64,000 bases of DNA from an uncultured virus (IMG/VR IMGVR_UViG_3300028586_000757) (IMGVR_UViG_3300028586_000757); one strand, 5' to 3'. Numbered from the stretch's first letter, positions 9,676-63,566 are shown. The notes: generated by a model from the letters alone, not told the origin. Translations and numbers: made by a program.

Positions 9676-10980
9676 TTACTTGGTGAGCTTCAGCACTTCC
9701 GTGCCTTCGCCATTCCTCAGACTGACGCGGTGAGTGCCCGCAGCACTATGCAATCGCTTGGCCAGGGCGACACCTTCCGTCAAGAATTCTACGTTGACGG
9801 GAGCGCCACCATTTACGACGACGTCAAACGGAGCGTGATTGTTTTCGTCCTCTTCCTCGACATCGACAACGGCATGGCAACCAGTACCATCCAGTCGCGC
9901 ATCCCACAGTTCAGCCAAGGCCATTCCACGGGCAGTCTCCCGATTGGGAGCAATACCCAGCCACGCGCCCAGGTAAAATGCATGCTCGTGCTCTTTGACG
10001 TAAACTTCAGCCGAATACAGCTTGGGCAGGTCGATGTTCGACTCGGCGTCGGTTTCCGTCGGCGGAGACATTACAGGTTGCGCCAAAGCGATTGTTGGCG
10101 AAAACCGTTGTTCGGTGAAGAACACGTATTCATCACCATCTGGCGACTTGAAGCAACGATGTGCCTCGCACCAGGTCAGTGAGCGCAGCTTCGCAAGAGT
10201 CACAGAATCTTCCCACTCAAGACCGTCTTCAAGGCGCCCAAGCTCGAGCACGTTGTGATGGCAATCATCTTCGGTGTCGTAGTCTCCGGCAGGCTCCGCC
10301 AACATTCCCAACACCTCCGAACTGTAATACCGCAGAGAGAAGGGCACACCGTTGATGAGCACATTGGACACTGCCTCAAACGGAACGTTTTGGATGCTCA
10401 CTGAGGATGTCGCAGCTGCTTTTGGGGCAAGCGCACGCGTCCCGTAGATGATACCCAGGTCCAGGGTGTCCTTTTGGGTAGGATGGTGCTGCCCAGAGAA
10501 CTCCGGCGTAGCAGTTTCCTGCGATGACGGAGTGGTTGGCTTACCTCGGAGTTGAGGCTGACCACGCATCAGTGCTCCAAGGATGGCGCCCATTACCAGC
10601 TGGGGGTCTTCTTGCCACTCGTCAGACACCCAGTATGCGACTTCACGGCCCAGGGGGTCGCAAACGCGAACGTAGTCGACCAAGTCTCCTTCGGCACCAT
10701 AGCGGAGTTCAAAACCCGTATGAACGACCGCGGCGCATTCTGCACCATAGTCGTTTCCCTCGTTGTGCTCGATATGGCTCAGCTCGAAATCGGCCAGCTG
10801 TTCGTTTAGTGCTTCCGGACTTGTCGCTCGCGCCATCGAGTTCCAGTCTTTGAAACCAGAGAGAACTGCAATTGCGTCGAGTGCTTTACCATGTCCCAGC
10901 TCGATTCCGGACTTTGCCAGGAACTTCTCCAAGGCACGTGCCGATTTTTTGGCGGTCTTGGCGTTATTGATGTGCAGCAT
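9676..10980 (-). CDS. Protein with N-terminal PF20066 ('glyoxalase superfamily')-like small domain and unknown C-terminus
   Basis: AKKSARALEKFL...LGHGKALDAIAVLSGFKDWNSM; AAGGA RBS. Confidence 0.7.
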   Translation of the reverse strand: MLHINNAKTAKKSARALEKFLAKSGIELGHGKALDAIAVLSGFKDWNSMARATSPEALNEQLADFELSHIEHNEGNDYGAECAAVVHTGFELRYGAEGDLVDYVRVCDPLGREVAYWVSDEWQEDPQLVMGAILGALMRGQPQLRGKPTTPSSQETATPEFSGQHHPTQKDTLDLGIIYGTRALAPKAAATSSVSIQNVPFEAVSNVLINGVPFSLRYYSSEVLGMLAEPAGDYDTEDDCHHNVLELGRLEDGLEWEDSVTLAKLRSLTWCEAHRCFKSPDGDEYVFFTEQRFSPTIALAQPVMSPPTETDAESNIDLPKLYSAEVYVKEHEHAFYLGAWLGIAPNRETARGMALAELWDARLDGTGCHAVVDVEEEDENNHAPFDVVVNGGAPVNVEFLTEGVALAKRLHSAAGTHRVSLRNGEGTEVLKLTK

Positions 10981-11249
10981 AGCTGTTTTCCTTTTCGTGA
11001 ACATTGCGCAAGGCGCTGTATCACGTTCAATTCGTGTCGATTGCCTGCTTTACCGTAGCGCCTTGCGATGTACACAAGGTTCAGCTTGGGGTTGTCCTAC
11101 AAGGTTCTGCTTAATTCACCGTCTCCCACATGGGAGGCAGGCGGCTGGCGGCAGAGTGCGCCATGAACAGTCTAGTGACACGATATCGACAAGAAAAAGC
11201 CAAACTCCCTATACAGCAGGAGTACTCAACGACTTCTAAGGAAATGCAT

Positions 11250-11528
11250 ATGCAAGGAAACTATCTCATCCTGAAACAAGGAAAGTCCAATGTCCCGTTC
11301 ATCTTGCCTCCAGAGATGGAGCACAAAGAGGCACTGCAAACGTTCAAGCTGAATGTGAAAGATGTGGTTAGTGCGGGCACCTTTACGTACGACCCGCATT
11401 TCTCGTTGGGCGGATTCTCGTTCCGATGCACCACCGTCAACCTTGGACAGGAAGGCGGTGCGCGGCTGTTTGGTCGCGGTGACCACGATGCCTGCCGTCT
11501 GCGTGACAGCTTCCAGCGCAAGAATTGA
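11250..11528 (+). CDS. Small hypothetical (phage-like) protein
   Basis: AAGGA RBS; PFILP...H...VVSAG.F pattern; terminator at ~11535-11564. Confidence 0.6.
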   Translation: MQGNYLILKQGKSNVPFILPPEMEHKEALQTFKLNVKDVVSAGTFTYDPHFSLGGFSFRCTTVNLGQEGGARLFGRGDHDACRLRDSFQRKN

Positions 11529-11877
11529 TTCTAAGGCTGCCCAATGCCGGGCAGTCTTTTTTTTCGCCGATTGTTTTTCGAGCGCACAAAAGCAAACGCC
11601 CCGTTGAAGTTCAACAGGGCGCAGCTTCCCAAGCACAGTAGAAAGGTTCTTAGCTGTTTGCGTCACATTTCGTTTCGTTCACAGCATGGAAACCATTATA
11701 CAAGACGTTTTTCGGACCCGTCAAATAATGCTTGACACAGATTTGAAAATGTTTGCGCTTTTTTAGAAACGCATAGAAAAATCCGGGGGTTGAGTAACAT
11801 CTGTGCAACACATTGCACACATTCAGACATTTTTTAAGCTGTGGGTTGCAATTTAAGATACGAGGGCTATTCGAGGG

Positions 11878-19161: not shown

Positions 19162-20775
19162 ATGATGCTGAACTTGATGTTGGACTTGGAAGCGTTCGGA
19201 CCGCGGCCGCGGGGCTTGATTGTTTCGGTCGGGGCGGTTGTATTTGATGACGAGTTGCCACCGGAGAGCTGTGTGCTCGAAGGGGAGACGAACCGATTTT
19301 ATGGGGTGCTCGATTACCAAGACGCGCAGGATGCGCGGTTTGAAGTGTCGGGCGAGACGATGGCTTGGTGGGCGACCCAGGGGCCGGCGTTTGCGCAGCT
19401 CATGCTCGAGATGAGTACCAAGGGCGAGCGCCTTGATGCGCTGTTCGGCCGGTTGGCCACCTGGCTCGCGCGCTTCAAGGACACGCCAGTTCGCCACTGG
19501 TCCAATGCGCCGTCGTATGACGCGCTGATGCTCGAGACCACGTTCAAGGCGCTAGGTCTGGCCAGTCCCCTGTCGTACAAGACGGAGCGCGACTACCGCA
19601 CGATGATGGAACTGGCGCATGGCGCTGTGCGTCCGGATGTGCCGGCCGGTGGTGTACACAACGCGTTGTTTGATGCCATCGAGCAGGCCAAGCTGGCCAC
19701 GGCCGCCCTGCAAAAGTTGCGCAGTGGTCCGGCGGCGCCGCTGGTCATTGCTGGCTACCCGACTCTTGGCGCTCTCCAGGTTTCGGCACCTGATGTCGCG
19801 CAGGTAGTCAGCAACCCGGCGGTTAAAGTCATCGCCACGCCAGAGACTCTGGCTGCGGCGCAGCCACTTGGTCAGGCGAATGTTGCACCTTCGGCGCTTG
19901 GCGAGCGGGTAGAGCCTCCCCGCGCTTCCGGTGCTTCGGCATCCATGTCCGCGCTGATGTCTGGTGCGCAGTGTGACGTGAAATCGGTGACGGCAGTGGT
20001 GGCGCTGGACATCGACGGCGTGGTGCAGACGCCGGCGCTGCAGGACTGGCACGAGATGGAACATGCTGGCCCGCTCATCGAAATCCTGGAAGAGATGCCG
20101 CATGTGGGTATTCTTATCAGTGCAACTGACCGCGAGACCAGCTCCCCAGCAGACATCGTGGCAATGCTGCCCGAGAAGATTGCCAGCCGTGTTGTAGGCA
20201 TGACGGATGTGACCAAAGATGGCCGGGCCAATGGTGGTCGCCAGGCGGAAATTGATGCGTGGCTTGCTCGGCACCCACATATCCAGACGGTGGTGGCCGT
20301 GGACGACGAGGCCTTCCTGTTTGATGAGCACTGCCCGTACCTGGTGCAGACTTTCAAGTGGATGGGCTGGACCGAGGACACCACCCGCGCGGTGCGTAGC
20401 CTTCTCGCCGGCGAAGTTCCAGATGTCAAAGTGACGTCGACCCTGGGCCGCGGCTCGAGCTTGCCGGCCAACTGGGCGGACCCGGATGCGGACCTGGACG
20501 GGGACGTCGATGTGAAGTCGCTGCAGGAGAAGGCGCGCCGGGATGAGCAGGAACGACAGGCTTGGGCGAGTAACCCGGCGGTGGGCCAGCAGCAGAACCG
20601 CGACGTGCCGCGTAGCTCCCTGGTGCGCGATGCGATGGAAACTCCGTCCCTGATGGCGCCGAAGTCCGGCGCAAAGGATGCGCCTCGAGTTCTGAAAGAC
20701 CGCGGCCGCCAGTTAGAAGAGCGTAACTCCCGGCCAGGGGGATGGCGCGGGTTCCTAACGCGCGGCGGCAAGTAA
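19162..20775 (+). CDS. DEDDh 3'-5' exo(ribo)nuclease (Rv2179c/DUF5051-like) fused to HAD 'Swiss Army knife' phosphatase domain
   Basis: MLDLEAFG...SNAPSYD...RDYRT...HNALFDA; second domain ALDIDGVV...ISAT.R...R..EI..WL...VAVDD; GGAGG RBS. Confidence 0.8.
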   Translation: MMLNLMLDLEAFGPRPRGLIVSVGAVVFDDELPPESCVLEGETNRFYGVLDYQDAQDARFEVSGETMAWWATQGPAFAQLMLEMSTKGERLDALFGRLATWLARFKDTPVRHWSNAPSYDALMLETTFKALGLASPLSYKTERDYRTMMELAHGAVRPDVPAGGVHNALFDAIEQAKLATAALQKLRSGPAAPLVIAGYPTLGALQVSAPDVAQVVSNPAVKVIATPETLAAAQPLGQANVAPSALGERVEPPRASGASASMSALMSGAQCDVKSVTAVVALDIDGVVQTPALQDWHEMEHAGPLIEILEEMPHVGILISATDRETSSPADIVAMLPEKIASRVVGMTDVTKDGRANGGRQAEIDAWLARHPHIQTVVAVDDEAFLFDEHCPYLVQTFKWMGWTEDTTRAVRSLLAGEVPDVKVTSTLGRGSSLPANWADPDADLDGDVDVKSLQEKARRDEQERQAWASNPAVGQQQNRDVPRSSLVRDAMETPSLMAPKSGAKDAPRVLKDRGRQLEERNSRPGGWRGFLTRGGK

Positions 20776-28623: not shown

Positions 28624-28694
28624 TTGAGCTCCGAGCAGTGCTAACGCCCCTATATGGGGCGTTTTTCATTGGTAGCCGAGAATCGATGTCTAAA

Positions 28695-28723
28695 TTGACA
28701 TTTTAGTGGCCGGGTTGTACCAT
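28695..28723 (+). promoter_or_regulatory. Sigma70-type promoter
   Basis: TTGACA-17-TACCAT about 155 nt upstream of ATG 28879. Confidence 0.65.
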
Positions 28724-28878
28724 GGTTCTTGAGTCGCCCGTGCCGACTTGCCCGCCCACAGCGGCGAAGCTGGACTTACAGCATGCATGAGGACCTTCGA
28801 GGCTTGGTTGACCATTGGTCGCAAGTGACTCGGTGTGTGGGCGCATCGCAGTACGGCGGCCTTATGGAGATTTCAACC

Positions 28879-29418
28879 ATGGCACAAGTATCGTTTTCCC
28901 AGATTTTGCAGCTGCGTCGCAACGCCAAACGACTGGCGCAGTCCCAGAACCTGACACATTCCCAAGCGCTGGACCAGGTGGCCCGAGTTCGAGGCTACGG
29001 CAACTGGTCACAACTCATGAAGCACGCTGAGCAAGAAGCGCCAGCATTCGTCGATGCAGCGCCGGCGCCAGGGCTGACCTCTGCTGAGGTCCAACAAGTC
29101 TTGGGCATGCCGAAGTTGGTAGCCACACGCGACGAGCGCAAAATCATCATGGCCATCGCCAAACGATTTTCCAGCCTGGTTGGCGATGCCTTCGAGGTGA
29201 ACATGCTCAGTATTCTCATGGACATCGAGGCATGCCACTGCAACGGCTGCCCATTGGACCTGGTGGGGCTGTTGGAAGCGTCGCGAGATGAGGACCTGGC
29301 GCATGACGTGGGCGGGATTTCCCGCTACCTGAATCGCGACACTGGCAAGCTGGAGGGGTGGTTTACGCCCCGATACGCGAGCCAGCAGGGGCTTGCCGCC
29401 ACCGCCGGGAGCGCGTAA
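28879..29418 (+). CDS. PF20066-like N-terminal domain plus DUF6874-like C-terminal domain
   Basis: LRRNAKRL...LTHSQALDQVARVRGYGNWSQL; MDIEACHCNGCPLDL..LL...HDVGGI..Y.NRDTGKL...F.PRY. Confidence 0.75.
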   Translation: MAQVSFSQILQLRRNAKRLAQSQNLTHSQALDQVARVRGYGNWSQLMKHAEQEAPAFVDAAPAPGLTSAEVQQVLGMPKLVATRDERKIIMAIAKRFSSLVGDAFEVNMLSILMDIEACHCNGCPLDLVGLLEASRDEDLAHDVGGISRYLNRDTGKLEGWFTPRYASQQGLAATAGSA

Positions 29419-38625: not shown

Positions 38626-39051
38626 ATGAAGCTCGAAGAACGTATGTTGCGGTCCGTGAAGCAGCGGGCGGGTAATGTCATCCTACGTGCCGAAGTGGCG
38701 CAGCTGGGAAGCCCTTCCCAAGTTTCAGAGGCATTGAAGTCGCTCCAGGCGAAAGGCGTGCTGGTGCGTATCGGAACAGGCGTGTATGCCAAAACCCGAC
38801 AGAGCTCGGTGACGGGTGCAACTGTCCCCGCCGGTAGCTTGGAGACCCTGGCAATCGAGACTTTAAAGAAATTGGGAGTCAAAGTGCTGGCAAGCAAGGC
38901 CGCCAAATCGTACAATTCTGGTAAGACAACCCAGATTCCTGGTGCGTTTGTCGCCAATACGGGTGGACGTCGCATTCGTAGGAAAATTGCGGTGGGAGGC
39001 CGTGCAGTTGTCTATGAGAACGATTTCGGAAAAACAACGGCAAGCGCTTGA
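38626..39051 (+). CDS. AbiEi-like (DUF6088-like) antitoxin / wHTH protein
   Basis: L..L..KGVLVRIGTGVY wHTH; TQIP; overlaps the downstream toxin; TTGACA-16-TATAGT at 38569-38596. Confidence 0.75.
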   Translation: MKLEERMLRSVKQRAGNVILRAEVAQLGSPSQVSEALKSLQAKGVLVRIGTGVYAKTRQSSVTGATVPAGSLETLAIETLKKLGVKVLASKAAKSYNSGKTTQIPGAFVANTGGRRIRRKIAVGGRAVVYENDFGKTTASA

Positions 39052-48291: not shown

Positions 48292-49836
48292 TCAGAGCTT
48301 TTCGACTTTCACTGCCGGATAGCAGTAGCGCACGAGCCGGGTGTCGAGCGCCTGAAGGGCCGGACGCTTGCAGACTGTCTGCAGCCACCTACGAAGCTTG
48401 CTGTTGACACGAGCGAACTCATCTACCACCTCGTCTGGCAGCCGGCTTGGGCCCAAATAGGGAAACTGCGTGGGGCTGACGTCCAGGCAGATGGCCGAAA
48501 CACCGTCTGCGAGGCTCTGGCAGTGAGCCAGTACGGCTTCGAGCAGCAGCGTAGAGTTGTTGCGCTTACGCGCGACGGTAGACAGCTCGAGAAGCTCCAC
48601 GTGAAATAGCGCGCCGCGGTCAAAGCACTGGGTAATTCGCGGGAAGGCTTCGGTAATCGACTCTGCCAGTTCCATCGCGTCTTGAGACAGACTGTCGGCT
48701 ACCATCAAGAAGTCCATTCGCCCGACGCCCGGGCCCGCTGCCTCGTAGAGCCGACCATTGAGAAAACCAATATTTTCGCCTTGGTCAGTGCGAAGGTTTG
48801 CCCGGATGCGGGTCAGCCTGAATGCATCAGCGTACTCGTTAAGGTCCGGCAGGTGCATCACCTCAACAAGAAGGCCGGGGGCCACGTTGGTTGTGAGAAT
48901 TGCGGGAGGAAAGGGCGGTAGTGCGGTGTCGTCGTAGAGGCCTTCGTCCTCCTCTTCGTCATATTCACCGTCATCGTACCGTTCCGGCAGGCTAAGTCCC
49001 CGTCCAGTATTTCTGAAGGCGACCAATCCATCAGGCCCTGGCTCCTGGAAAAACAAATCCCACAAGGACTTGTGTTCGGCGTAGCGCAGAGCTTGTCCAT
49101 AGAGTCGTTCCGCCACCACGTCCTGGACCTTCTCCAGCGTGTCGCCTCGCTGAGAGGGGACGTACGTGTCGGCGCCAAGCAAACTGGCGGCTGTCGAGCA
49201 TAATGCATCGACGGCATCGTTTCCCCGCACCAGTTCTTCCCTGAGCTTTTCTCCGGCCGTGCGCCGCTTCAGGGGCTGCCCAACCAAGGACAGCTCTGGC
49301 GCGAGCTGAAGATTCAGGGCGGACGCAAACTTGATTTGCTTGAGCGACCCCAGCAGACCCGCTGTCGGGTTTTCCAGCAGTTTTTGCACGATGTAGCGGA
49401 CATTGCTCCTTACCTCCGCATCGAGCCGGCTTGCATCTTTTGGCCAAGCCAGGTTGATGGCGTGCTCAACGTCCGTGTCACCTGGCAAGGTAATCGACGA
49501 AGCTTTCCCGGTAAGTGCCCAATCCTCCAGCACATAAGGGACGTCGACAGGCTCAATACGGGGCAGCGCCAATAAGGCATCTCGCTGGATTCGCCAACGC
49601 GAGGCCTGTTCGGCCGGCGTTACGTGCTGCGAGAGCGCACTGGACGGAGGGTTGGTATTCAGGACCTCCTCCAAGGCATGCCAATCCTTGTGACCAAGCG
49701 CTCTAGCAGTCGTCTGCTGGGCCAGGGCCAATGAGATGTCGAGGTCCTTCACCAGCTTGCGAAGCAGTTTTGCTTTGGCCTTGGCGTAGTCGATGGACGT
49801 AGGGATGAACGGGGTACTGCTGACAGCGTGAGTCAT
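48292..49836 (-). CDS. PF20066-like N-terminal domain plus GNAT-like C-terminal region
   Basis: AKAKAKLLRK...ISLALAQQTTARALGHKDWHAL; C-terminal LFHVELLEL...R...LL...P.QF...KL. Confidence 0.65.
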   Translation of the reverse strand: MTHAVSSTPFIPTSIDYAKAKAKLLRKLVKDLDISLALAQQTTARALGHKDWHALEEVLNTNPPSSALSQHVTPAEQASRWRIQRDALLALPRIEPVDVPYVLEDWALTGKASSITLPGDTDVEHAINLAWPKDASRLDAEVRSNVRYIVQKLLENPTAGLLGSLKQIKFASALNLQLAPELSLVGQPLKRRTAGEKLREELVRGNDAVDALCSTAASLLGADTYVPSQRGDTLEKVQDVVAERLYGQALRYAEHKSLWDLFFQEPGPDGLVAFRNTGRGLSLPERYDDGEYDEEEDEGLYDDTALPPFPPAILTTNVAPGLLVEVMHLPDLNEYADAFRLTRIRANLRTDQGENIGFLNGRLYEAAGPGVGRMDFLMVADSLSQDAMELAESITEAFPRITQCFDRGALFHVELLELSTVARKRNNSTLLLEAVLAHCQSLADGVSAICLDVSPTQFPYLGPSRLPDEVVDEFARVNSKLRRWLQTVCKRPALQALDTRLVRYCYPAVKVEKL

Positions 49837-50100
49837 GCGCGGCTCCTAAACGTTGTCGAAAGCTCGTGTCGGCTCCGAGCCTTCGCTGCCTAGGGGCGGA
49901 TAATGGAAAACGCAATAGGCGGTGCAATGCTCCACTGCTAAAAGCTTGTGCATGCCGACGCACTATGCGACCAGGAGTCAGGCCGTGCGACGAGGATACC
50001 AGAAGAGTTGCCGGGCGAACAAGCACAGGTGAATGCTACCGACAAAGAAAAGTCCTCCTGGCAGATGCACAGGAGGACTCAAGAATGTGTTGTGCGGTGC

Positions 50101-51813: not shown

Positions 51814-54800
51814 TTACTCGCGCGTGCAGGTCTGGAAGACCGATGTGGTAGTTCCGCTCATCACGAGAGTTCCGTTGGATGAGATAGCAACTCCTGTGCG
51901 GGCTGAAGAGGTTCCGCCGGACGCCCACATGTATGGCCAATTTGGCCGTACCGATGCATCGACCAACGCTAGCGCGTGAAGCTCAGCCTCGGTGCCCAAC
52001 CGCCAGCCCGATACGCCACCCGTTGTCATCGAGAGGCAGCCTGAATTGGAGATGTCCCAGGTGGTGGAGCCTGACGGCTTCGGCGTCCAGGCCCGGCCAC
52101 CTACTACCAGGGCGCCGCCTGGCGCAGTGACGGTCAGGGTAGCTGTTGCAGTGCCTGCCGCAAAATCGGCCGATTCTGCTTGGGTCACAGTAACCGCAAA
52201 TGCGCCTGTTGCGTTGATTGTGGCGGTGCTTCCTGCCACAGTCAGCTTAGCAGCTGATAGCGTAGTGGAATACGTCAGAGCTCCCGTGCTATTGGAACTA
52301 GCCGATAGGGCAACCGGTGCAATCCGGAGCGGATTGTATTGATACGACTGGGCCGGGATATTGAAGACAATGGTCGGCGCGCCCTTGGTCACCGTAAACA
52401 AAGCCGTTGCGGTGCTGCTACCGTAGAGGCCTGAGGCCTGCTGTACGGCAGTAAATGTCGCAGTTCCGCGGCCAGTAATCGTAACAGTATCTCCGGAAAT
52501 GGTGGCCACGGCGGGGTTATCACTCGAATACACGAATGTTCCCGGGCTATCTGACTTGGGAGGTGTCAAGGCGAAAGGGGCACTGCCGTAGGTTTTTGCA
52601 GGAACGGACCAGGCGCCCAGCGTAGGAGCTTTCGACAGCGCACTCGCTTGCAGGGTACGCGAGACGGAAGCACCCTTCGTTGATGTCGCGCTAACCACGC
52701 CGGACAGCGCTCCGTCGGTAGACGGCCTCACGTTCACGATAATGGTGCAAGCCGCGTTCGCCGAAAGAGAAGTGCCAGCTGCACACGTTCCGCCAGCATA
52801 GGTGAAGCCCGCACCGGAGACGGTTGGCGCCGCTTTGACGGTGTCTGCAATCGGGGCGGTATTTCGCAGCACGAAGGTGCGAGCAGTATCCGCGTTCACA
52901 GGCACAATACCGTAGTCTGCGCTAGGCGCAGCGTCGAACGTGAACGAGGGAGCCGGTGCCGAGCCTGTCAGCGCCAGGCGCACTGGTCCGTTGACAAGTG
53001 TCCCGGAAGACTCGAGAACGGCATCTATCAGCGTCCCTGGCGAAGCTGGAACATACTTTACGGTGATTGCGCATGTGCCACCTGGTGTGACCGTCACCGG
53101 CGCGCCGTTCGTACCGCAGGCGTTTGAGAGCAAGGACAAGCCGGCACCACTCACGGATGTGACCAGATTACGAACGGACGCGTCGCCAGTGTTCTTGAAG
53201 GTAAAGCTGCGCTGAGCAGATGTGCCCGGTTCTACCGTCCCGAAACTGGTCGAGGTAACAGCAGTCAACACACCAGATGCGGCTGTTCCCTTACCTGCCA
53301 AGTCAAAGTAATGCTTGCCACTGTCGCTCAGGAGGGCAACGCCCCCTGTGCGCGGGCCGCTCTGGCTCGGAGCAAACTGTAGGCTGAGCGTGCAGTACTC
53401 GCCGGGCTGCAGCACACTGCCGCAGTTGTTCGTCATGCGGAAGTCATCCGGGCCATCCAGGAGAGATAGCCCCAGAATGGTCAGTGGCCCCGTGCCTTTG
53501 TTGCTGAACTTGACGTTGCGCACCGCGCTTACCTGGCCGTACTCGGTGGCCAGGAAATTGATAGCGTAGTGGGTAAAACCATCTGGCGTCGCTACTGGCG
53601 TTACGGTGCCAGGCGACCCGTCTCCCGTGTCCGGAGTCGGGTCCGGAGCAATATCAGCGACCGGTTTAGTGCCTTGTCCCGACATGCTGATGAAGTAGTC
53701 GCCCAACGAGCTCGTAACCGCCCAGGTGCCTGCGCTACCGTTGGTTGATTTCGGCGTCATTTTGAGGGTGACCGTGCAGCTGGCGCCGGCTGCCAGGGAA
53801 TTACCGCAGTCGTTCGATTGCGAGAACTCGGTTTCGCCCGATACGATGCTGGCGCCCGTAATTTCCGCTTGCTTGTTCGTCGGGTTGCTCAAGACGACAT
53901 CGACAGTTGGAGCGGATTGCCCAACGTTAGTGGGCGCAAAGCGCACCGAAGTTGGCGACAACGTCAGTTTGGGCGCCGCACCTACGCCGTCAAGGGCAAC
54001 GCGTACTAGCGTCGAGCCATAGCCAACTGCAGTGAGTTCCCCGTGAAGAGTGCCCGCCGTTGTGGGGGTGAACCGGACGGTAGCCGTGCAGCTGGCGCCG
54101 GCGGCAAGCGTCGTTCCACAATTGTTGGATTGGTTAAATGCACTGCGGCCCGACACGACGTCAATACCGTCAAGGGGCAGCTCGTCCGTACCCCGATTGG
54201 TAATCGTGACAGACTGGTCCGGCGCGGACTCGTTCAGCCAGGTTGAAGGGTACTGGAGTGCAGACGGGGACGCTGCAACCGAGATAGCTCGGCCTGTGAC
54301 GTCCACGGTTGGCGAACCTGCGTTATCAGAAGTAATTTGCAGCGTTGCAGCAAAAGGCCCCGTGCTGTCAGGCGTGTACTGCAGCGATACCGTGCAGGAC
54401 TGCATCGACGAGAGCTTGTTGCCGCAGTCGCTTGAGTCCACGGCCAAGGCAGTTCCGGTTGACTGGAATGACAGTCCCGTCACCAAGACGTTTCCGGTAT
54501 TGGATAGGGTTACATTACGCACGGGCGTCGAATCAGGGAAGACAATGTTGCCAAATTGGATGCTTGCCGTGCTGAGCGAGAGGGCCACCTTTTGGCCTGT
54601 GCCGGTCAAGCTGATTGCGGTCGAATCCCCCGCTGCCGGCGTAACCCTCAGTTCACCCGAGCTATCTGCAGTTCCCGTTGGGATGAAACCAACGGATACG
54701 ATGCAGGAGCCGCGGGCTGGAATAGACGTTCCGCAGTCGTTCTCTTGCTGGAATACGTTTGGCGATGTCGTGATGGACTTGAGCCCCATCGCGATAGCGC

Positions 54801-57234
54801 CAGGGTTGGTCACTGTCACTGACTTGACCGCACGCTGGCCAATATCGACGCGGCCGAAGCCTAGGGAGGTGGGGGAGAGCGCCGGGCGGGCATCCTGTCC
54901 TTGGCCCGCGAGTGCAATATGGTATGTGCCAATGCTGCTCACGAGCGACCAGGTGCCGTCGAAGCCAGCTGCAGCCGTTGGCGTCATCTGGAGAGAGACA
55001 GTGCAGTTTGCGCCGGCGCCAAGCACCGTGCCGCAATTGTTCGACTGGCTAAAGACCGACTGTCCGCTGCTAATACTCATGCCCGTCAAGGCCACCGAAT
55101 TGCGGGTCGGATTGCTGAGCGTCACGTCAATTGGCTGCGACGGTTGGCGGATGTACGAGCTCGGGAACGCCACCGACGTGCGCGAAAGCGAAAGCCAGGA
55201 CGGTAGGCCCGTTCCGGTCAGCGGCACGTTCACCAAACCGGAGCCGTAAGCCGCTACGCTCAAGGCTCCGTTGGATGCGCCAGCAGAGCGGGGAACGAAC
55301 TTAACGGCCACCATGCAGCTGCTACCTGCTCCCAGGCTTGTGCCGCAGTTGTTGGCCTGCAGGTAGTCGCCTGCTGCGACGCTCACGCCGTCCAGAGGTA
55401 CCTCATCCGGGCCTGCGTTGGTGACAGTAACCGCTTGGTTGACGGTACTTTGGCCCACTTCAGTATCTTCAAACGTGAGGGATGTCGGCGAAGACGTCAA
55501 TTTGACGACTGCACCAGAGAGCGAGACAGTGGCGCTACCTGCATCCGAAAGGATTTGCAGGCTCGAGGAAATGACACCCAGACCGCTTGGGGTGTACCGC
55601 AGCATTAGAGAGCAGCTCTTGTTCGCGCCCAGGATAGCCGTGCAGTCACCGTAATCAATGGCCAGGCGAGAGTCATTGTTCGATACTGCCAGGCCGGTCA
55701 GCGGGATGTTTCCGCTGTTGACGATAGAGACCGAGCGGGACACGGTTCCAGATGGCCAAGGTAGGGCGCCGAGGCGAAGCGCGGTGGGAGAGACCAACAG
55801 CATGGCTTGCTGACCGACGCCTTCAAGCGCCAGGGGTGTAGAAGCACCTTCGCTGTCGACGCGCACTCGGCCGCTGCGTGCGCCCGCGGATTTGGGCGTA
55901 AAGGTGACTGTTACCATGCAAGATGCCTGAGGCGCAATGGTGTCGCCGCAGTCATTGGACTGCTGGTATACGTCGGAACTAACGTCGATGCCAAGGCTTT
56001 TTACCGTAATCGCTTTGGCGCTCGGATTGCTCAGGACGGCCGTCTTGGTGGCGCTTTGACCAACCATCACTTCAGCAAAGTTCAGCGTACTAGGCGAGAT
56101 AACTGGCACCGGCGCGTCACCAGCACCTTTGACGGTCCCTTGAAGCATCAGATGGCCGCGGACCTCTGCTTGTGCGCCCACTACCAGGTCATATGCTGGC
56201 GCTGTTCCCGCCTTAAGCGCGGTGAACCCGACATGCAGATTGCACGATGCGCCTATTTCCAGCGTCGAGGGACAATCACTGGAGACCGAAAAATCCGGGT
56301 TTGAAGCGAGCCCCGTCAGTTCCGCCGGCGCGGTACCCCGATTTGTCAGCACGGCAGTCTTGTTGGCATGAGCCCCGACATCGAGCGCGTCAAACTGCAA
56401 CGAGCTCGGCGAGAATGCCAAGACGGGTACGATAGCCGGGTCCTTGTTCACCTTGGCGTAAAAGGTAAGCGGGATTGCAGAGGTGCTCGGCAGCTCTGTT
56501 GCACCGACTCGCAAAGTCACGCTGTGTGTTTTCGGTACATACGAGGAGAAACTCGCAGTAACAGTGCAAGACGCTTTCTCGGGTAGTTGAGCAGGGCAGT
56601 CACTCGTAATGGAAAACGCGTCTTTAGATGTGAGGCCTGTCAGCGCGGCTGGCGCGTTGCCGGTGTTTTTTAGTGTTGCAGACGTGCTCGCTTGCGCGCC
56701 CGGGCCCAGCTCTCCCAGGTAGACGGGAGACTCACTCACCTGCAAGCGAGGCGCGATACCTGTGAACGGTTCTACGGTTGCCAGCTGCACCGCGACGGGT
56801 GCGTCGATTTCAGCTGCGCCAAGCGACAGGCTGTATCGAACGCCAGGCTGTACTGTCGTCGGGGTGACGGAGATAGTGCAGGAGCTAGAGGGTTTGAGCA
56901 GGGTGGGGCAATTGTGCTTTATTGCAAAATCGTCACTATCTCCGATGCTCGTCAAGGTGGCTGGGCGAAAGCCTGCATTTGTCAGCAACACATTCTGGCT
57001 TACCGGTGCTGCGTTCTCTTCTACCTCAAACTGCAAGATATCGGTAGAGACTAGCAGCTGCACTGGTTCGTCGTCGAGCTCCACATCACCATCACCCGCA
57101 CCCGGCGCCGTTTTGGTTGGCTTCAGGTCACGAAGGGGAATCCGATACTCCGTTGCCAGAACAGGCTGGATGGTCAGGATTCCCGCGAGAAGATGAGTGA
57201 TGAAAACGCTGAAGCGGTTATGGCGAAGAAACAT
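51814..57234 (-). CDS. Giant secreted adhesin: ~14 ASH/choice-of-anchor-D Ig repeats, two Big-like domains, C-terminal invasin/DUF1566-like lectin domain
   Basis: Signal peptide VLA; 14 counted L.F..V.VG...N.G...C...L..G.SC.V.V.F.P units; tip TW..S...C...WRLGTEAEL..L. Confidence 0.9.
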   Translation of the reverse strand: MFLRHNRFSVFITHLLAGILTIQPVLATEYRIPLRDLKPTKTAPGAGDGDVELDDEPVQLLVSTDILQFEVEENAAPVSQNVLLTNAGFRPATLTSIGDSDDFAIKHNCPTLLKPSSSCTISVTPTTVQPGVRYSLSLGAAEIDAPVAVQLATVEPFTGIAPRLQVSESPVYLGELGPGAQASTSATLKNTGNAPAALTGLTSKDAFSITSDCPAQLPEKASCTVTASFSSYVPKTHSVTLRVGATELPSTSAIPLTFYAKVNKDPAIVPVLAFSPSSLQFDALDVGAHANKTAVLTNRGTAPAELTGLASNPDFSVSSDCPSTLEIGASCNLHVGFTALKAGTAPAYDLVVGAQAEVRGHLMLQGTVKGAGDAPVPVISPSTLNFAEVMVGQSATKTAVLSNPSAKAITVKSLGIDVSSDVYQQSNDCGDTIAPQASCMVTVTFTPKSAGARSGRVRVDSEGASTPLALEGVGQQAMLLVSPTALRLGALPWPSGTVSRSVSIVNSGNIPLTGLAVSNNDSRLAIDYGDCTAILGANKSCSLMLRYTPSGLGVISSSLQILSDAGSATVSLSGAVVKLTSSPTSLTFEDTEVGQSTVNQAVTVTNAGPDEVPLDGVSVAAGDYLQANNCGTSLGAGSSCMVAVKFVPRSAGASNGALSVAAYGSGLVNVPLTGTGLPSWLSLSRTSVAFPSSYIRQPSQPIDVTLSNPTRNSVALTGMSISSGQSVFSQSNNCGTVLGAGANCTVSLQMTPTAAAGFDGTWSLVSSIGTYHIALAGQGQDARPALSPTSLGFGRVDIGQRAVKSVTVTNPGAIAMGLKSITTSPNVFQQENDCGTSIPARGSCIVSVGFIPTGTADSSGELRVTPAAGDSTAISLTGTGQKVALSLSTASIQFGNIVFPDSTPVRNVTLSNTGNVLVTGLSFQSTGTALAVDSSDCGNKLSSMQSCTVSLQYTPDSTGPFAATLQITSDNAGSPTVDVTGRAISVAASPSALQYPSTWLNESAPDQSVTITNRGTDELPLDGIDVVSGRSAFNQSNNCGTTLAAGASCTATVRFTPTTAGTLHGELTAVGYGSTLVRVALDGVGAAPKLTLSPTSVRFAPTNVGQSAPTVDVVLSNPTNKQAEITGASIVSGETEFSQSNDCGNSLAAGASCTVTLKMTPKSTNGSAGTWAVTSSLGDYFISMSGQGTKPVADIAPDPTPDTGDGSPGTVTPVATPDGFTHYAINFLATEYGQVSAVRNVKFSNKGTGPLTILGLSLLDGPDDFRMTNNCGSVLQPGEYCTLSLQFAPSQSGPRTGGVALLSDSGKHYFDLAGKGTAASGVLTAVTSTSFGTVEPGTSAQRSFTFKNTGDASVRNLVTSVSGAGLSLLSNACGTNGAPVTVTPGGTCAITVKYVPASPGTLIDAVLESSGTLVNGPVRLALTGSAPAPSFTFDAAPSADYGIVPVNADTARTFVLRNTAPIADTVKAAPTVSGAGFTYAGGTCAAGTSLSANAACTIIVNVRPSTDGALSGVVSATSTKGASVSRTLQASALSKAPTLGAWSVPAKTYGSAPFALTPPKSDSPGTFVYSSDNPAVATISGDTVTITGRGTATFTAVQQASGLYGSSTATALFTVTKGAPTIVFNIPAQSYQYNPLRIAPVALSASSNSTGALTYSTTLSAAKLTVAGSTATINATGAFAVTVTQAESADFAAGTATATLTVTAPGGALVVGGRAWTPKPSGSTTWDISNSGCLSMTTGGVSGWRLGTEAELHALALVDASVRPNWPYMWASGGTSSARTGVAISSNGTLVMSGTTTSVFQTCTRE

Positions 57235-58258: not shown

Positions 58259-58285
58259 GTTTTTCCTTATGAGTAATCGGTTGGG

Positions 58286-60626: not shown

Positions 60627-60685
60627 GAGCAGGGTCTGCTGTATTCGTTTTCTACACGAATGAGGACAACCTCTCAGGAGCCAAC

Positions 60686-61036: not shown

Positions 61037-61129
61037 TTGAAAAGCTCCCTGACCGGGAGCTTTTTCTTTGTCGGAGAGGCTACTAGAAGCGCCAGGCGGC
61101 ACTTTCGTCGAGGCCTAGTACATGCGCGC

Positions 61130-61891
61130 TTACTGACCGGTCCCGGTCAGCGTGAAGGTAGTGCCTAGCAGGCTCAGTGTGGCCGAGCGCGTGCCAAGTG
61201 CTGTAGGGGAGAAGGTGACTTTCACCTCACAGCTGCCATTCTGCTCGACGTTGACGCAGCTATTATCGACCCGAAAGTCGCCCGGGTTGGCGCCCGTCAG
61301 CGGCTGCAGCTCGACCGAACCGGGAATGTTCCCAAAATTGTAGATGTCGAACGTCCTGGAGCTTGACGCGCCCACAGCGGTATTTGCAAACGTCTGGGTC
61401 GCCGGCGGGTAGCCATTGAATACGAATGCGACGCCCAGGCCCGCGCCCATCATCTGGACGGAGAACGAATTTGCAGAGCTCATCACAGTTACCCAGCCCC
61501 ATTGCGTGCCCAGCTCCGTCGGGGTGAAGCTTACGGAGATGTTGCACTTGGCGCCGACACTCAACTTCTTCCCGCATGTATTCGTTTGATTAAAGTTCTC
61601 ACGCCCAAGCGCAATGTCAATGCCGGTAATGTCTACCGGGCCAGTGCCTGTGTTGGTGAGGCTGAAGGTGTAGACAGGTCCGGTGGTGTGAAGCAGCGTT
61701 GCGGGGAACTCATAGCCCCACTCAAGTCCATCAGGGACCGAGAGGAAGCCTTCTCCGTCGCCGGCGGGTAATTCACTGCTGTTGTTCGACAGCAGCGGAA
61801 TTCGGTATTGCAGCTTGTCAGCAGCATTGGCGGTAGCCGACACATTGCTGAGCGCCGCGGCCAGGATTGCAAGGAGCGCTAGTTTGTTCAT
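61130..61891 (-). CDS. Secreted protein with two ASH/choice-of-anchor-D Ig domains
   Basis: Signal peptide ANA; two N.G...C...L..G.C.V.F.P repeats. Confidence 0.85.
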   Translation of the reverse strand: MNKLALLAILAAALSNVSATANAADKLQYRIPLLSNNSSELPAGDGEGFLSVPDGLEWGYEFPATLLHTTGPVYTFSLTNTGTGPVDITGIDIALGRENFNQTNTCGKKLSVGAKCNISVSFTPTELGTQWGWVTVMSSANSFSVQMMGAGLGVAFVFNGYPPATQTFANTAVGASSSRTFDIYNFGNIPGSVELQPLTGANPGDFRVDNSCVNVEQNGSCEVKVTFSPTALGTRSATLSLLGTTFTLTGTGQ

Positions 61892-62138
61892 GGGTACATT
61901 GGCGTAGAAATCTGGTTTAGCGACTACCCTTAGCTGGTTGGAGCCGCCCACATCGGGCCGACCAGTGCGAAGGTTGACTACTTACTAAGCGTTTGTTAGG
62001 CTACTAAGCAACGGGGCGGGTGTCCCTGTGCTGTCTCCCTTTGGCGCGCCTCTCGGCCACACCTCTTCTGAATACGCTGACATCAGGTTCTCCTTTCCGT
62101 CGGCCATGGAGACTCGTCGACCAAACGAGGAGAGACTC

Positions 62139-63566
62139 ATGCGTATCAACTTCAAAACCGCGTCGGTACCGACCCGCGCGGCCAAGCGACTCAAAGCCGC
62201 CTTATCCATCAAAGACTCGACTGCCAAGGAGTGGACGGCGCAGGTGTACGGGTATCGAAACTGGCATGACTTGGTGCAGGCCTTAGACACGGCCGGCGTA
62301 TCGCCCTTGGATGAAGACTGTCCTCCAAGCGAAGTAGCTGCCCGCAGGCGGTATCAGGTGGCGCAGCTGCAGGCGTGTATGGCCAAAGACCGTGTTGCAC
62401 CTCGGCTCAGTGCTGCTGCACTCGTAGACTGCTGGCAGCCTTCTGCCGGGTATCCGAATCAGAAGTTGCGTATTTTGCAGGCGGACGAACGCCCCGAGCG
62501 CGCGGCGGCATTTTTGGGACTGGACCATCTCCTATTCTTGCGAGACCTTAGCCCAGGACTTTTGGCGGGCGTACCATCACGGTGCGCCGGCTGGCTGGAT
62601 AAGGAAGCTTGCTCAATTGCGCGCGGACTGATGAGGAAAGGGAGCGAAGACGAAAAACGCTTTGCGCGGGCCGTACTCGAGGAGCTCCATGCCCAAGGTA
62701 GCTCGGCAGGCACACTGCATCTGGCAATCAGTCTTCTTTTGGGCGCAGGGGGAGAGCAGGACGAAAAACGTGCTGACACGCTCTTTCTGGCTCTGTTGAC
62801 TGGCGCTGACACGCCTGAGAATATTCGTGCGGCCGCAGCAGACGGACGCTCCGCTGTCCTGGGCCGAGGTGACGACTGGCCGGCCGACATCTCGAAAGCG
62901 CTTGCAACTTGGGAGCAGAAAGCATTGGCGGGAAGTCCCGTTCACGCCTACCGACTGGGGCTCGCGTACGACCAGTTTAAGCCGGCTACACAGGAAGCGC
63001 GAGGTGACCTGGCCAAAGCGGTGAAGTTCTACCGGATGGCCGCGGAGAATGGCCACACGCCGGCAGCGGGGTGCTTGGGCTTCATCTTGTCGGGGAATCG
63101 AGACCTCTGCGAGTATCCGGGAGAGGGCGAGATTTGGCTGGAGCGCGCGGCCCAGGGTGGAGACCGGCTTGCCCTGGAAGTCGGAGCAAAGGTTGATGTT
63201 GCTGTGGCGCAGTTGGCCGCGATGCCGAAAGCTGCAGCGAAGGCACAAATCATGAATCTCGTGGAGCGGCAAATTCCGAAGGCTCAACGCGGAGAGCCTG
63301 AACTTGACCCAGTACTGGGGGAAGTGGTCCTTCTTCCGCCGGCATTGTGGGTCCAGCTGTCGACCGGATTTCTTTTTGAGCGCAAAGAAGATGTTTTCGA
63401 GCGTATCGAGGGCGCTTACCTCGCTCCAACCGTCATGGCAACGTATCCGCGAGGCGTTGACGAGGCGTTTGAGCGAATGGGCTGGGTCCAGCATCACGGC
63501 GAGTTGCTCGAATACTGCAACGCCCATGTCCGCGAAGAGCGAGACGACCGACAGGGTGTCCGGTAG
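62139..63566 (+). CDS. PF20066-like N-terminal domain plus Sel1-like repeats
   Basis: AAKRLKAAL...AKEWTAQVYGYRNWHDL; AYRLGLAY...DLAKAVKFYRMAAENGH; GAGGAG RBS; TTGACT-17-TAGGCT at 61974-62002. Confidence 0.75.
   Translation: MRINFKTASVPTRAAKRLKAALSIKDSTAKEWTAQVYGYRNWHDLVQALDTAGVSPLDEDCPPSEVAARRRYQVAQLQACMAKDRVAPRLSAAALVDCWQPSAGYPNQKLRILQADERPERAAAFLGLDHLLFLRDLSPGLLAGVPSRCAGWLDKEACSIARGLMRKGSEDEKRFARAVLEELHAQGSSAGTLHLAISLLLGAGGEQDEKRADTLFLALLTGADTPENIRAAAADGRSAVLGRGDDWPADISKALATWEQKALAGSPVHAYRLGLAYDQFKPATQEARGDLAKAVKFYRMAAENGHTPAAGCLGFILSGNRDLCEYPGEGEIWLERAAQGGDRLALEVGAKVDVAVAQLAAMPKAAAKAQIMNLVERQIPKAQRGEPELDPVLGEVVLLPPALWVQLSTGFLFERKEDVFERIEGAYLAPTVMATYPRGVDEAFERMGWVQHHGELLEYCNAHVREERDDRQGVR

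What the first reader, a model, noticed from the sequence alone, without database searches (positions are those of the whole stretch)
9676..63566. Four dispersed genes sharing a small N-terminal PF20066-like domain, each with a different cargo domain and a long structured 5' leader
Seen: 9676-10980(-), 28879-29418(+), 48292-49836(-) and 62139-63566(+) all begin with A(K/R).L...A....A...G(F/Y/H)..W..(L/M). They continue into unrelated cargo (unknown, DUF6874-like, GNAT-like, Sel1-like). Unlike most genes here, each has a ~130-200-nt leader with a long-range stem closing shortly before the RBS: CGCAAGGCGCT 11007-11017 / AGCGCCTTGCG 11057-11067 (plus a hairpin at 11106-11155); CGCCCACA 28753-28760 / TGTGGGCG 28836-28843; GTCGGC 49868-49873 / GCCGAC 49954-49959; GTCTCC..TGGC 62033-62045 / GCCA.GGAGAC 62103-62113. 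Inference: a modular ncRNA-plus-protein system in which the N-terminal domain binds its cognate leader RNA (autoregulation or an RNP) and carries variable effectors. The leaders show little primary-sequence identity by eye.
Basis: partly seen in the sequence, partly recalled or inferred. Interest (0 to 1): 0.72.

Follow-up and report, generated by a model that had tools for sequence, protein, structure and literature searches.

The report
RNA leader paired with protein domain
Genes that begin with one small, positively charged protein domain are preceded, here and in many other bacteria, by a conserved folded RNA leader that matched no Rfam family and that probably sets how much of these proteins is made.

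Summary
The four genes exist and share a real three-helix N-terminal domain of about 45 residues. It corresponds to the first ~55 positions of Pfam PF20066 and carries a strongly basic first helix. The same domain heads proteins with many different C-termini.

The leaders looked unremarkable by folding energy and by stem counts. Comparative data changed that. Gene A carries a related 'canonical' class at 11038-11171. Gene C is unresolved.

Across 80 canonical leaders, helices P1 and P1a are 98% paired, and 9 of 10 pairs show compensatory changes. A pseudoknot is also supported. Rfam 15 gave no match.

The link to the domain holds in both directions:
- 56 of 89 domain genes in sampled genomes carry the motif (21 of these were read by eye).
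- 22 of 24 genome-wide canonical-model hits lie just upstream of a domain gene.
- The exceptions are MATE efflux genes and one false positive.

Best reading (about 0.45): a translational operator bound by the N-domain itself. Main rival (about 0.3): a small-molecule riboswitch. No binding or expression data exist.

The parts
9676..10980 (-). Gene A, 434 aa: N-domain followed by about 380 aa of no known family
   Evidence: ORF. PF20066 at 32.4 bits over residues 5-54 and no other family.
10825..10971 (-). Gene A N-terminal domain, long-linker subtype (33 residues from the conserved Ala to the conserved Trp)
11038..11171 (-). Gene A leader motif, canonical class. 5' hairpin P0 at 11147-11162. 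P1 pairs 11137-11142 with 11043-11048. P1a hairpin at 11123-11136. Junction ACGGUGAA at 11115-11122.
   Evidence: Model R3 was built only from other genomes. This is its top hit in the window: 23.1 bits, E 0.0046, next hit 13.2 bits. Coordinates. P0 was read by eye.
11007..11067 (-). Its 5' arm lies inside the motif and its 3' arm lies downstream, so it crosses P1. It may be a switch or platform helix.
   Evidence: Its role is inferred. No orthologous leaders were available to test conservation.
28695..28723 (+). Promoter-like site of gene B (TTGACA, 17 nt, TACCAT). It follows the upstream gene's terminator-like hairpin at 28643-28663.
   Evidence: 10 of 12 consensus matches, against 0.2 expected in shuffles.
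28732..28850 (+). Gene B leader motif, class 1. P0 pairs 28732-28736 with 28744-28748. P1 pairs 28753-28760 with 28836-28843. Junction GCGGCGAAGC at 28761-28770. P2 at 28769-28782. Tentative pseudoknot between the P0 loop (28739-28743) and GCAUG (28781-28789).
   Evidence: Model R1 was built only from metagenome D-family leaders. It ranks this site 3rd in the window: 13.3 bits, E 0.43. Covariation of P1. In related contigs the leader is nearly invariant while the CDS differs by about 9%. P0 and the pseudoknot were read by eye.
28879..29418 (+). Gene B, 179 aa: N-domain (28888-29028) plus DUF6874 (about 29134-29379)
48292..49836 (-). Gene C, 514 aa: N-domain (49657-49803) plus about 450 aa of no known family
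49837..50043 (-). Gene C leader, unresolved. No model hit. By eye only, 49871-49899 resembles a 5' arm plus GCGAAG junction plus a small hairpin.
   Evidence: No orthologues among 401 genomes. By-eye terminator-like hairpin of the upstream gene at 50044-50077; the scanner found none.
62011..62121 (+). Gene D leader motif, class 1. P0 pairs 62011-62016 with 62024-62029. P1 pairs 62033-62038 with 62108-62113. P1b pairs 62042-62045 with 62103-62106. P2 at 62048-62057. Tentative pseudoknot pairs 62019-62023 with 62059-62063. Pyrimidine-rich stretch at 62088-62098.
   Evidence: R1 ranks this site 2nd in the window: 14.2 bits, E 0.27, full-length alignment. Covariation. Coordinates. P0 and the pseudoknot were read by eye.
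62139..63566 (+). Gene D, 475 aa: N-domain (62142-62288) plus a Sel1-like repeat region
   Evidence: Family members have Sel1 above the cutoff.

Best explanation
SHOWN. Genes whose products start with a three-helix domain of about 45 residues are preceded by a conserved, pseudoknotted 5'-leader RNA of about 95-135 nt. The domain has a basic first helix and corresponds to the N-terminal part of PF20066.

The RNA has these elements:
- a 5' hairpin, P0;
- a long-range closing helix, P1;
- in one class, an extra hairpin P1a stacked on P1;
- a conserved junction, GGYGAAG;
- pairing of the P0 loop with the strand that follows the junction.

The motif ends about 20-40 nt before the start codon. In the window, gene A carries the 'canonical' class and genes B and D carry class 1.

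INFERRED. The leader is a translational operator, and the N-domain is the RNA-binding part that recognises it. The protein, possibly already as a nascent chain because the domain is nearly always at the extreme N-terminus, binds its own leader and limits further translation. The variable C-terminal parts (VOC/glyoxalase-like, Sel1, DUF6874, unknown) would be cargo or sensor domains. In some genomes the same protein would also act in trans on a MATE efflux mRNA that carries the motif.
For: THE STRUCTURE IS REAL.
- Class 1, 16 metagenome leaders: P1 is paired in 16 of 16, with both-side changes in 4 of 6 pairs.
- Canonical class, 12 seed leaders: 98.3% of cells paired and 8 of 10 pairs compensatory. 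RNAalifold finds the same helices.
- Canonical class, 80 leaders (78 distinct): 98.4% paired, 9 of 10 pairs compensatory, 163 cells changed on both sides, 0 of 500 shuffles as high. Slid controls reach 22-46% paired.
- Thirty-one G-U cells in the per-pair table (my sum) fit folding of the sense strand only.
- Pseudoknot: all 6 pairs show both-side changes, and 68.8% of cells pair in a fixed register.

THE LEADER IS UNDER SELECTION. In related contigs, gene B's leader has 1 listed difference in 149 nt. The CDS has about 19 in 220 nt, and the promoter region has 10 substitutions plus 3 indels in 74 nt (run X4).

LINK TO THE DOMAIN, FORWARD DIRECTION. The domain occurs in 61 of 401 sampled genomes, giving 89 matches.
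- Canonical motif, 41: 12 read by eye and used as seeds, 28 found by R3 at E<=0.001 in the expected place and strand, and 1 through an operon.
- Class 1, 15: 7 found by R2 and 8 by eye.

LINK TO THE DOMAIN, REVERSE DIRECTION.
- R3 over 151 + 151 genomes gave 24 unique hits at E<=0.01. Twenty-two lie just upstream of a domain ORF (5 of them are seeds), 1 precedes a MATE gene, and 1 is an intragenic false positive.
- In one family, 46 of 121 genomes carry the motif. Of 39 hits examined, 35 precede a domain ORF and 4 precede MATE.

IN THE WINDOW. The independent models pick out the A, B and D leaders as ranks 1, 3 and 2.

THE DOMAIN.
- It starts within the first 15 residues in 153 of 166 proteins.
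- Six helix-1 positions are 56-94% Lys/Arg.
- The AlphaFold2 model gives three helices at pLDDT 84.

RNA CLASS TRACKS DOMAIN SUBTYPE. The conserved Ala-to-Trp spacing is 33 residues in 33 of 46 canonical-leader genes and 28-30 in 9 of 15 class-1 genes. In the window, A has 33 and B and D have 28.

Each of the 5 genomes with a MATE-linked motif also has a domain gene with the motif.
Against: - There are no binding, expression or transcription-start data.
- The domain has no significant sequence or fold match to any known RNA-binding domain.
- The motif also controls MATE genes that lack the domain and heads a MATE-PF20066 operon. That fits a ligand-sensing RNA at least as well.
- Co-inheritance of leader and N-terminal coding region could reflect common descent of a 5' module without any direct contact.
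- 33 of 89 domain genes lack this motif. Fifteen of them carry a different conserved leader (class 3, judged by eye and by regular expression), and 18 carry none that I recognised.
- The window hits for B and D are statistically marginal on their own (E 0.27 and 0.43).
- Model E-values are rough because calibration was shortened.
- Many of the 80 leaders come from one bacterial family, so the counts are not independent events.
Confidence: 0.45

Rival explanations
1. The leader is a riboswitch. Its pseudoknotted aptamer would bind a small, probably toxic, compound or ion and switch on detoxification genes. These would be a MATE exporter and PF20066-type proteins, many of which carry VOC/glyoxalase-like ligand-binding folds. 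The N-domain would have an unrelated role.
For: - The size (about 100-130 nt), the multi-helix pseudoknotted fold and the invariant junction nucleotides are typical of aptamers.
- The motif directly precedes MATE genes in 5 genomes and heads a MATE-PF20066 operon.
- Many canonical-class genes continue, by eye, into a sequence of the VOC type. No Pfam scan was run on them.
- By eye, small hairpins include the Shine-Dalgarno sequence downstream of the motif in several leaders.
Against: - Almost all downstream genes share one small N-terminal domain, whatever their C-terminal domain (Sel1, DUF6874, unknown). That pattern is unusual for a metabolite riboswitch.
- The junction sequence and architecture differ between classes and track the domain subtype, even within this one window.
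- A third domain subfamily has a quite different leader.
- No ligand can be named.
Confidence: 0.3
2. The leader is a conserved cis element read by something else. Candidates are an sRNA, a global RNA-binding protein, an RNase, or temperature or ribosome-dependent refolding. It would be co-inherited with the N-terminal coding region as a recombining 5' module.
For: - The leader and the first ~50 codons recur together in front of unrelated C-termini.
- A pyrimidine-rich CUUUC-like stretch inside the motif could act as an anti-Shine-Dalgarno sequence (read by eye).
Against: - The specificity of the motif for one domain family (22 of 24 hits) is not explained by a global factor.
- The strong conservation of junction nucleotides also goes unexplained.
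- Nothing in the data points to a particular factor.
Confidence: 0.15
3. The stems are chance complementarity in GC-rich intergenic DNA, or a DNA-level element such as an operator or recombination site, and there is no RNA function.
For: - Folding-energy z-scores of the four leaders are ordinary.
- Every upstream region has several long-range helices of 6 bp or more.
- Gene C's stem has no support.
Against: - Compensatory changes and G-U pairs on the sense strand only.
- Slid-register controls collapse.
- The leader is more conserved than the coding sequence.
- The motif has a fixed position, read by eye, between promoter-like sites and the start codon.
Confidence: 0.03

Closest known systems
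Autogenous translational operators: ribosomal-protein leaders, the phage T4 gene 32 leader (named from memory)
   Same: A structured, partly pseudoknotted 5' leader sits in front of the gene for one particular protein family. The gene-to-RNA association is nearly one to one.
   Different: Here the partner would be a small N-terminal module shared by proteins with many unrelated C-termini, not a ribosomal or replication protein. Binding has not been shown. The motif also precedes MATE genes.
Orphan riboswitch candidates and efflux-linked riboswitches, for example guanidine-IV / mepA motif (abstract listing only; details from memory)
   Same: A 5'-UTR aptamer-sized RNA with covarying helices and conserved junctions, placed upstream of a MATE exporter in some genomes.
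   Different: No Rfam 15 family matches at E<=1. Most downstream genes share one protein domain rather than one pathway. The classes differ in their core sequence.
ANTAR-domain regulators with their hairpin RNA targets (from memory)
   Same: A small helical RNA-binding module fused to variable sensor domains, acting on leader RNAs. This is the same design as my inferred reading.
   Different: There is no ANTAR match: Pfam shows none at E<=1 for the four proteins. The fold searches listed no significant match of any kind. The domain is N-terminal. The RNA is one pseudoknotted element, not tandem hairpins, and I saw no terminator downstream.
Pfam PF20066 (Glyoxalase_8)
   Same: The shared domain equals positions ~6-60 of this model. 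Canonical full-length members carry the same leader motif.
   Different: The four window proteins lack the C-terminal ~85 positions of the model. They carry other C-termini.

Membership tests
Pfam PF20066 (Glyoxalase_8) | Score at or above the curated cutoff of 23.7 bits | tested here: inconclusive
   A scores 32.4 bits and meets it. B (21.9) and C (17.6) fall below. D has no hit at E<=1. My own profile joins all four at E<=1e-22.
Pfam PF20066 (Glyoxalase_8) | Coverage of the whole 143-position model, including the glyoxalase-like C-terminal part | tested here: not met
   Only model positions ~5-68 are matched in A, B and C. The four are therefore carriers of the N-terminal module, not full family members.
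Any described RNA family (Rfam 15) | Covariance-model match | tested here: not met
   0 matches at gathering score in the window. 0 at E<=1 in 4 + 12 loci that hold the motif.
Riboswitch | Conserved structured aptamer with covariation in a 5' UTR | tested here: met
   Covariation. A promoter-like site lies upstream of B. For D, A and C the scanner found none.
Riboswitch | Direct, selective binding of a small molecule | not testable with these tools
   No ligand candidate emerges beyond the MATE and VOC gene context.
Riboswitch | Expression platform (a terminator, or Shine-Dalgarno sequestration that alternates with the aptamer) | tested here: inconclusive
   No U-tract terminators seen by eye. 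Small hairpins overlap the Shine-Dalgarno sequence in several leaders. In A, an 11-bp helix crosses P1. None of this was tested statistically.
Autogenous protein-binding leader | The RNA lies upstream of the gene for its binding protein | tested here: met
   22 of 24 genome-wide hits. 35 of 39 in one family. This shows the arrangement only.
Autogenous protein-binding leader | The protein binds the RNA and represses its own synthesis | not testable with these tools
   The only support is indirect: a basic helix 1 and a strictly N-terminal position.
ANTAR regulators | ANTAR domain (Pfam PF03861, accession from memory) | tested here: not met
   No such family at E<=1 in the four proteins.

The most novel reading that the evidence does not exclude
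The leader and the N-domain would be a co-evolving, portable RNA-protein control cassette. That would define a new class of one-component post-transcriptional regulators.
- A basic three-helix domain at the extreme N-terminus binds a pseudoknotted operator in its own 5' UTR, possibly co-translationally.
- Orthogonal RNA/domain pairs exist: class 1 and canonical both occur in this one window.
- C-terminal sensor or cargo domains are swappable.
- The cassette has trans targets such as MATE efflux mRNAs.
Probability: 0.3. Interest if true: 0.9.

Novelty: new variant of a known kind. Interest (0 to 1): 0.78.

Why it matters
If the RNA motif is truly undescribed, it is a widespread new bacterial leader.
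- The partner domain is present in 61 of 401 sampled genomes of one phylum.
- The canonical motif is present in 46 of 121 genomes of one family.

Its covariation support is as strong as that of accepted riboswitch candidates.

Its near-exclusive link to one tiny N-terminal domain gives a directly testable hypothesis for a domain that has no known function. It could also explain why a 'glyoxalase superfamily' Pfam family carries a helical N-terminal extension.

The MATE link suggests a role in the response to some toxic compound.

Either outcome would fill a gap. One is a new RNA-binding domain together with its operator. The other is a new riboswitch class with an unknown ligand.

Tried and rejected
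FOLDING ENERGY. The z-scores of the 150 nt upstream of 67 genes do not set the four leaders apart.

STEM COUNTING. Helices of 6-8 bp are common by chance.

KNOWN FAMILIES AND FOLDS.
- Rfam gave nothing.
- PDB by sequence: best E 0.71.
- Foldseek: no match at E<=0.001; the best rows are weak HTH-like matches at E>2.
- VIA-align wide: best Z 4.2, uninformative for a small helical domain.
- ESM Atlas: no usable hit.

SOURCE OF THE WINDOW.
- No whole genome is held for it.
- No near match in plasmids or phages for 28000-50000.

RELATED LOCI.
- The search for related loci with the 4-sequence domain alignment failed for lack of a conserved stretch.
- The viral scan found only the DUF6874 part.
- The metagenome scan did not return the close orthologues of D seen among proteins. 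Orthologous leaders of A and C were therefore never obtained.
- Gene C: no orthologue among 401 genomes and no model hit.

EXPRESSION. No RNA holder was listed. Run X2 laid nothing.

PROMOTERS. The scan found none for D, A or C. The TTGACT-17-TAGGCT site I read upstream of D is below the scanner's threshold.

CLASS-1 MODEL R2 GENOME-WIDE. Over 151 genomes it gave 2 strong hits, both next to domain genes (one of them a seed). It also gave 3 weak hits (E 0.015-0.037) with no domain ORF downstream, and it missed several class-1 leaders that I knew from other calls.

IDEAS DROPPED.
- Integron attC sites: there is no GTT/AAC core, the element sits between promoter and start codon, and pairing is strand-specific.
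- Single-stranded-DNA promoters of plasmid leading regions: sigma-70-like sites precede the element.
- ANTAR homology: no Pfam match.

LITERATURE.
- Searching 'PF20066', 'Glyoxalase_8', 'DUF6874' and 'PF21779' found only the two versions of the Durairaj et al. dark-family paper. The passage I read mentions DUF6874 only as a newly defined family.
- Searching 'structured noncoding RNA', 'glyoxalase', 'covariation' and 'motif' listed 15 of 53 papers, and none of those listed contains 'glyoxalase'.
- I did not read the supplements of the large motif-discovery papers, where such a motif could be hidden under another name.

Full report
WHAT IS AT THE COORDINATES

The four ORFs exist as described. 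I call them A (9676-10980, minus strand), B (28879-29418, plus), C (48292-49836, minus) and D (62139-63566, plus).

Their first ~50 residues align with invariant Ala, Ala, Gly and Trp.

Pfam places this stretch on positions ~6-60 of the 143-position model PF20066:
- A scores 32.4 bits, above the 23.7 cutoff.
- B scores 21.9 and C 17.6, both below it.
- D has no hit at E<=1.

A profile built from the four finds exactly these four genes in the six-frame window, at E 1e-22 to 1e-26, with the next hit at E 1.8.

Cargo domains:
- DUF6874 in B is solid (E 3e-23).
- Sel1 in D is weak here but clear in homologues.
- A has no known family.
- The 'GNAT-like' label for C is not supported at E<=1.

The rest of the window is mostly ORFs without a Pfam family. 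The window lies on a contig of 623,534 bases. No whole genome is held for it.

THE DOMAIN

A profile search of 1.84 billion representative proteins found 463 clusters at E<=0.001. Among the 166 proteins I held, the domain starts within the first 15 residues in 153.

It heads proteins of 44-556 aa. Their C-termini include the canonical PF20066 part, Sel1 repeats, DUF6874, YozE_SAM_like, ClpX zinc fingers, HTH_3, GerE, and tandem copies of the domain itself.

AlphaFold2 gives three helices at pLDDT 84. Six positions of helix 1 are 56-94% Lys/Arg, with almost no acidic residues.

No solved structure or fold matches significantly, and the ESM Atlas gave nothing.

The domain occurs in 61 of 401 sampled genomes of the phylum around handle G002, giving 89 matches.

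THE LEADERS: WHAT FAILED AND WHAT WORKED

- The z-scores of the four leaders (-2.27, -0.49, -1.32, +0.21) match the window's other upstream regions (mean -0.95, sd 1.43).
- Every upstream region has several chance helices of 6 bp or more.
- The four do have longer upstream spacers: 187-265 nt against a median of 117.5 for my crude ORF calls.

The picture changed when I printed the upstream regions of D-family homologues from metagenome contigs. They share a motif made of:
- a 5' arm;
- the junction YGGCGAAGCC;
- a small hairpin;
- a variable stretch;
- a complementary 3' arm that ends 21-36 nt before the ATG.

The arm sequence changes in concert, for example GUCCAC/GUGGAC, GCCCGC/GCGGGC, GCUCAC/GUGAGC and GUCUCC/GGAGAC.

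In 16 such leaders P1 is paired in every sequence, with both-side changes in 4 of 6 pairs. Slid controls fall from 86% to 28-46% paired.

Model R1 was built only from those metagenome leaders. Over both strands of the 64-kb window it ranks the D and B leaders 2nd and 3rd, with full-length alignments. Their scores are marginal (14.2 and 13.3 bits; E 0.27 and 0.43). Rank 1 is a terminator-like hairpin at 9608-9653 and is a false positive.

R1 also found the motif upstream of a B-like gene in a genome-collection MAG (L026, E 0.019). By eye, the two other MAG loci with B-like genes have it too.

A SECOND CLASS

Canonical PF20066 genes and N-domain-plus-VOC-like genes carry a variant. Its layout is CCUGCCG, then P1, then an extra hairpin P1a stacked on P1, then AUGGUGAAG, a variable stretch, GGCAAUG, and the P1 3' arm.
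- In 12 seed leaders, 98.3% of cells pair and 8 of 10 pairs are compensatory. RNAalifold agrees.
- In 80 leaders aligned to model R3 (78 distinct), 98.4% pair and 9 of 10 pairs are compensatory, with 163 cells changed on both sides and 0 of 500 shuffles as high.
- I count 31 G-U cells in that call's per-pair table. These fit folding of the sense strand only.

I also saw that the loop of a 5' hairpin (P0) pairs with the strand right after GGUGAA, for example GAUGCG/CGCAUC, GAUACA/UGUAUC, GGAGGCG/CGCCUCC and UCGGGC/GCCCGA. In a fixed register, 68.8% of cells pair and all 6 pairs show both-side changes. The register differs between subgroups, so this is probably an underestimate.

In the window, R3 contains no window sequence. 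Its top hit is gene A's leader at 11038-11171: 23.1 bits, E 0.0046, with the next hit at 13.2 bits.

However, its 5' arm lies inside the motif and its 3' arm lies downstream, so it crosses P1. It may be a switching helix. I could not test this because no orthologous A leaders were retrieved.

Gene C is unresolved. No model hits it, and no orthologues were found among 401 genomes. By eye only, 49871-49899 resembles the 5' half of the motif.

ASSOCIATION

Forward direction: of the 89 domain matches,
- 41 have the canonical motif. Twelve were read by eye and used as seeds. Twenty-eight were found by R3 at E<=0.001 in the expected place and strand among 59 freshly fetched loci. One comes through an operon.
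- 15 have class 1. Seven were found by R2 and eight by eye.
- 15 have a different conserved leader, class 3. Eleven were read by eye and four were found by a regular expression.
- 18 have none that I recognised.

Reverse direction:
- R3 over 151 genomes gave 10 hits at E<=0.01.
- Over another 151 genomes it gave 17 hits, 14 of them new.
- Of the 24 unique hits, 22 lie directly upstream of a domain ORF. Five of those are seeds, and one has a short ORF in between.
- One hit precedes a MATE gene, and one is an intragenic false positive.

In the family around G127, 46 of 121 genomes have the motif, with 51 hits. Beyond the two already known from earlier calls (the G127 seed and the MATE-linked L103), 39 were examined and 10 were not. 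Thirty-five of the 39 precede a domain ORF, and 4 precede MATE genes (PF01554, E 8e-26). Each of the five MATE-linked genomes also has a domain gene with the motif.

In G359 the motif (56.5 bits) heads an operon of a MATE gene followed by a canonical PF20066 gene.

Model R2 for class 1 is weak genome-wide. It gave 2 strong hits, both next to domain genes, and 3 weak hits that are not.

SELECTION ON A WINDOW LEADER

Contigs of related organisms laid on 28640-29100 differ from the window as follows:
- In run X4: 10 substitutions and 3 indels in the 74 nt around the promoter; 1 listed difference in the 149-nt leader; about 19 in 220 nt of coding sequence.
- Run X3 shows the same pattern.

B also has a promoter-like site (TTGACA-17-TACCAT) at 28695-28723, downstream of the upstream gene's terminator-like hairpin. 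The scanner found no promoter-like site for D, A or C.

IS IT KNOWN?
- Rfam 15: no family at gathering score in the window. None at E<=1 in 16 loci that hold the motif.
- Literature: nothing on PF20066. DUF6874 appears only as a newly named dark family, in the one passage I read of PMC10584680. A four-term search listed no paper that joins glyoxalase with a structured RNA motif (listing and abstracts only).
- I did not read the supplements of the big motif surveys.
I treat this as an unverified lead that agrees with my result.

HOW IT MOST LIKELY WORKS

Shown: a conserved, pseudoknotted sense-strand structure in the 5' leader, tightly linked to genes that start with this domain.

Inferred: the function. 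I favour an autogenous operator bound by the N-domain (about 0.45), for four reasons:
- The association is with a domain rather than a pathway.
- The domain is basic and almost always at the extreme N-terminus.
- RNA class tracks domain subtype. Linker length is 33 residues in 33 of 46 canonical-leader genes and 28-30 in 9 of 15 class-1 genes. In this window, A has 33 with the canonical RNA, and B and D have 28 with class 1.
- Every MATE-linked genome keeps a domain gene.

The riboswitch reading (about 0.3) is favoured by the aptamer-like fold and by the MATE and VOC context.

A third possibility (about 0.15) is another trans factor, or a stability element co-inherited with the 5' module.

Chance is excluded for A, B and D. 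It remains open for C.

CAVEATS
- Model E-values are rough because calibration was shortened.
- Many canonical leaders come from one family, so cell counts are not independent events.
- Genomes are anonymous samples.
- Several assignments were made by eye and are marked as such.
- No expression data exist. No RNA holder was listed.

Noticed in passing
loci L073, L074, L078, L081, L082, L084-L086, L090, L091, L093 (upstream ~230 nt): A third N-domain subfamily (proteins of about 250 aa starting MKLSAPIYHLKRKAK...) has its own strongly conserved leader. It has CCUCCYCCCUCC and CAUAAGGAGGG blocks that could pair, followed by a second Shine-Dalgarno-like AGGAGG before the ATG. It was not modelled.
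   Followed up: partly
L219:621-2600 (G359) and L103, L206-L209: The canonical leader precedes MATE efflux genes. In G359 the MATE gene is followed directly by a canonical PF20066 gene in one apparent operon.
   Followed up: yes
window 9608-9653 (-): Terminator-like hairpin with a U-tract just downstream of gene A. It was the top, and false, hit of model R1.
   Followed up: partly
window 46114-46236 (+): Weak R3 hit (13.2 bits, E 0.35) that shares GCCAGCCGC...GAAGACCCC...CCGACGGCA with the canonical motif. It lies antisense to the 459-aa ORF at 45514-46893. Probably chance.
   Followed up: no
window 34688-35908 (+); protein P0115: The window encodes a ClpX-like ATPase (zinc finger plus AAA_2). 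Elsewhere, a protein carries two copies of the N-domain together with two ClpX-type zinc fingers. A link between the domain and ClpX recognition is conceivable but untested.
   Followed up: no
window 19162-20775, 38942-40066, 43269-44549, 51814-57234: Other annotated genes among many ORFs of no family: an Rv2179c-like exonuclease fused to a 'Swiss-army-knife' HAD domain, an AbiEii nucleotidyltransferase, an N6/N4 methylase with an Mrr_N domain, and an 1806-aa protein of Ig-like (ASH/Cep192) repeats. The region looks like accessory or mobile DNA.
   Followed up: no
G030:C2:244280-312236 (L107, L145, L150): Three N-domain genes lie within about 67 kb of one 320-kb contig. This mirrors the clustering of four copies in this 64-kb window. 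Most genomes have 1-3 copies in total.
   Followed up: no
L051 (1957-nt contig): Both contig ends show the same sequence. The 3' part of the leader motif and the first 23 codons appear at the start (1-130), and the whole motif with the same 23 codons appears at 1771-1957. This suggests a circular or tandemly repeated element, or an assembly artefact.
   Followed up: no
L042:3635-4010: A leader motif followed by a 41-codon ORF, then a second copy of the same ribosome-binding region in front of the N-domain gene. This looks like a local duplication.
   Followed up: no
window 28879-29418 (DUF6874 part) and A3: DUF6874 has an invariant E-A-C-H-C-N-G-x-P motif and a conserved H-D pair in 8 of 8 homologues, which suggests a metal site. 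The domain also occurs without the N-domain in 25 viral contigs.
   Followed up: no
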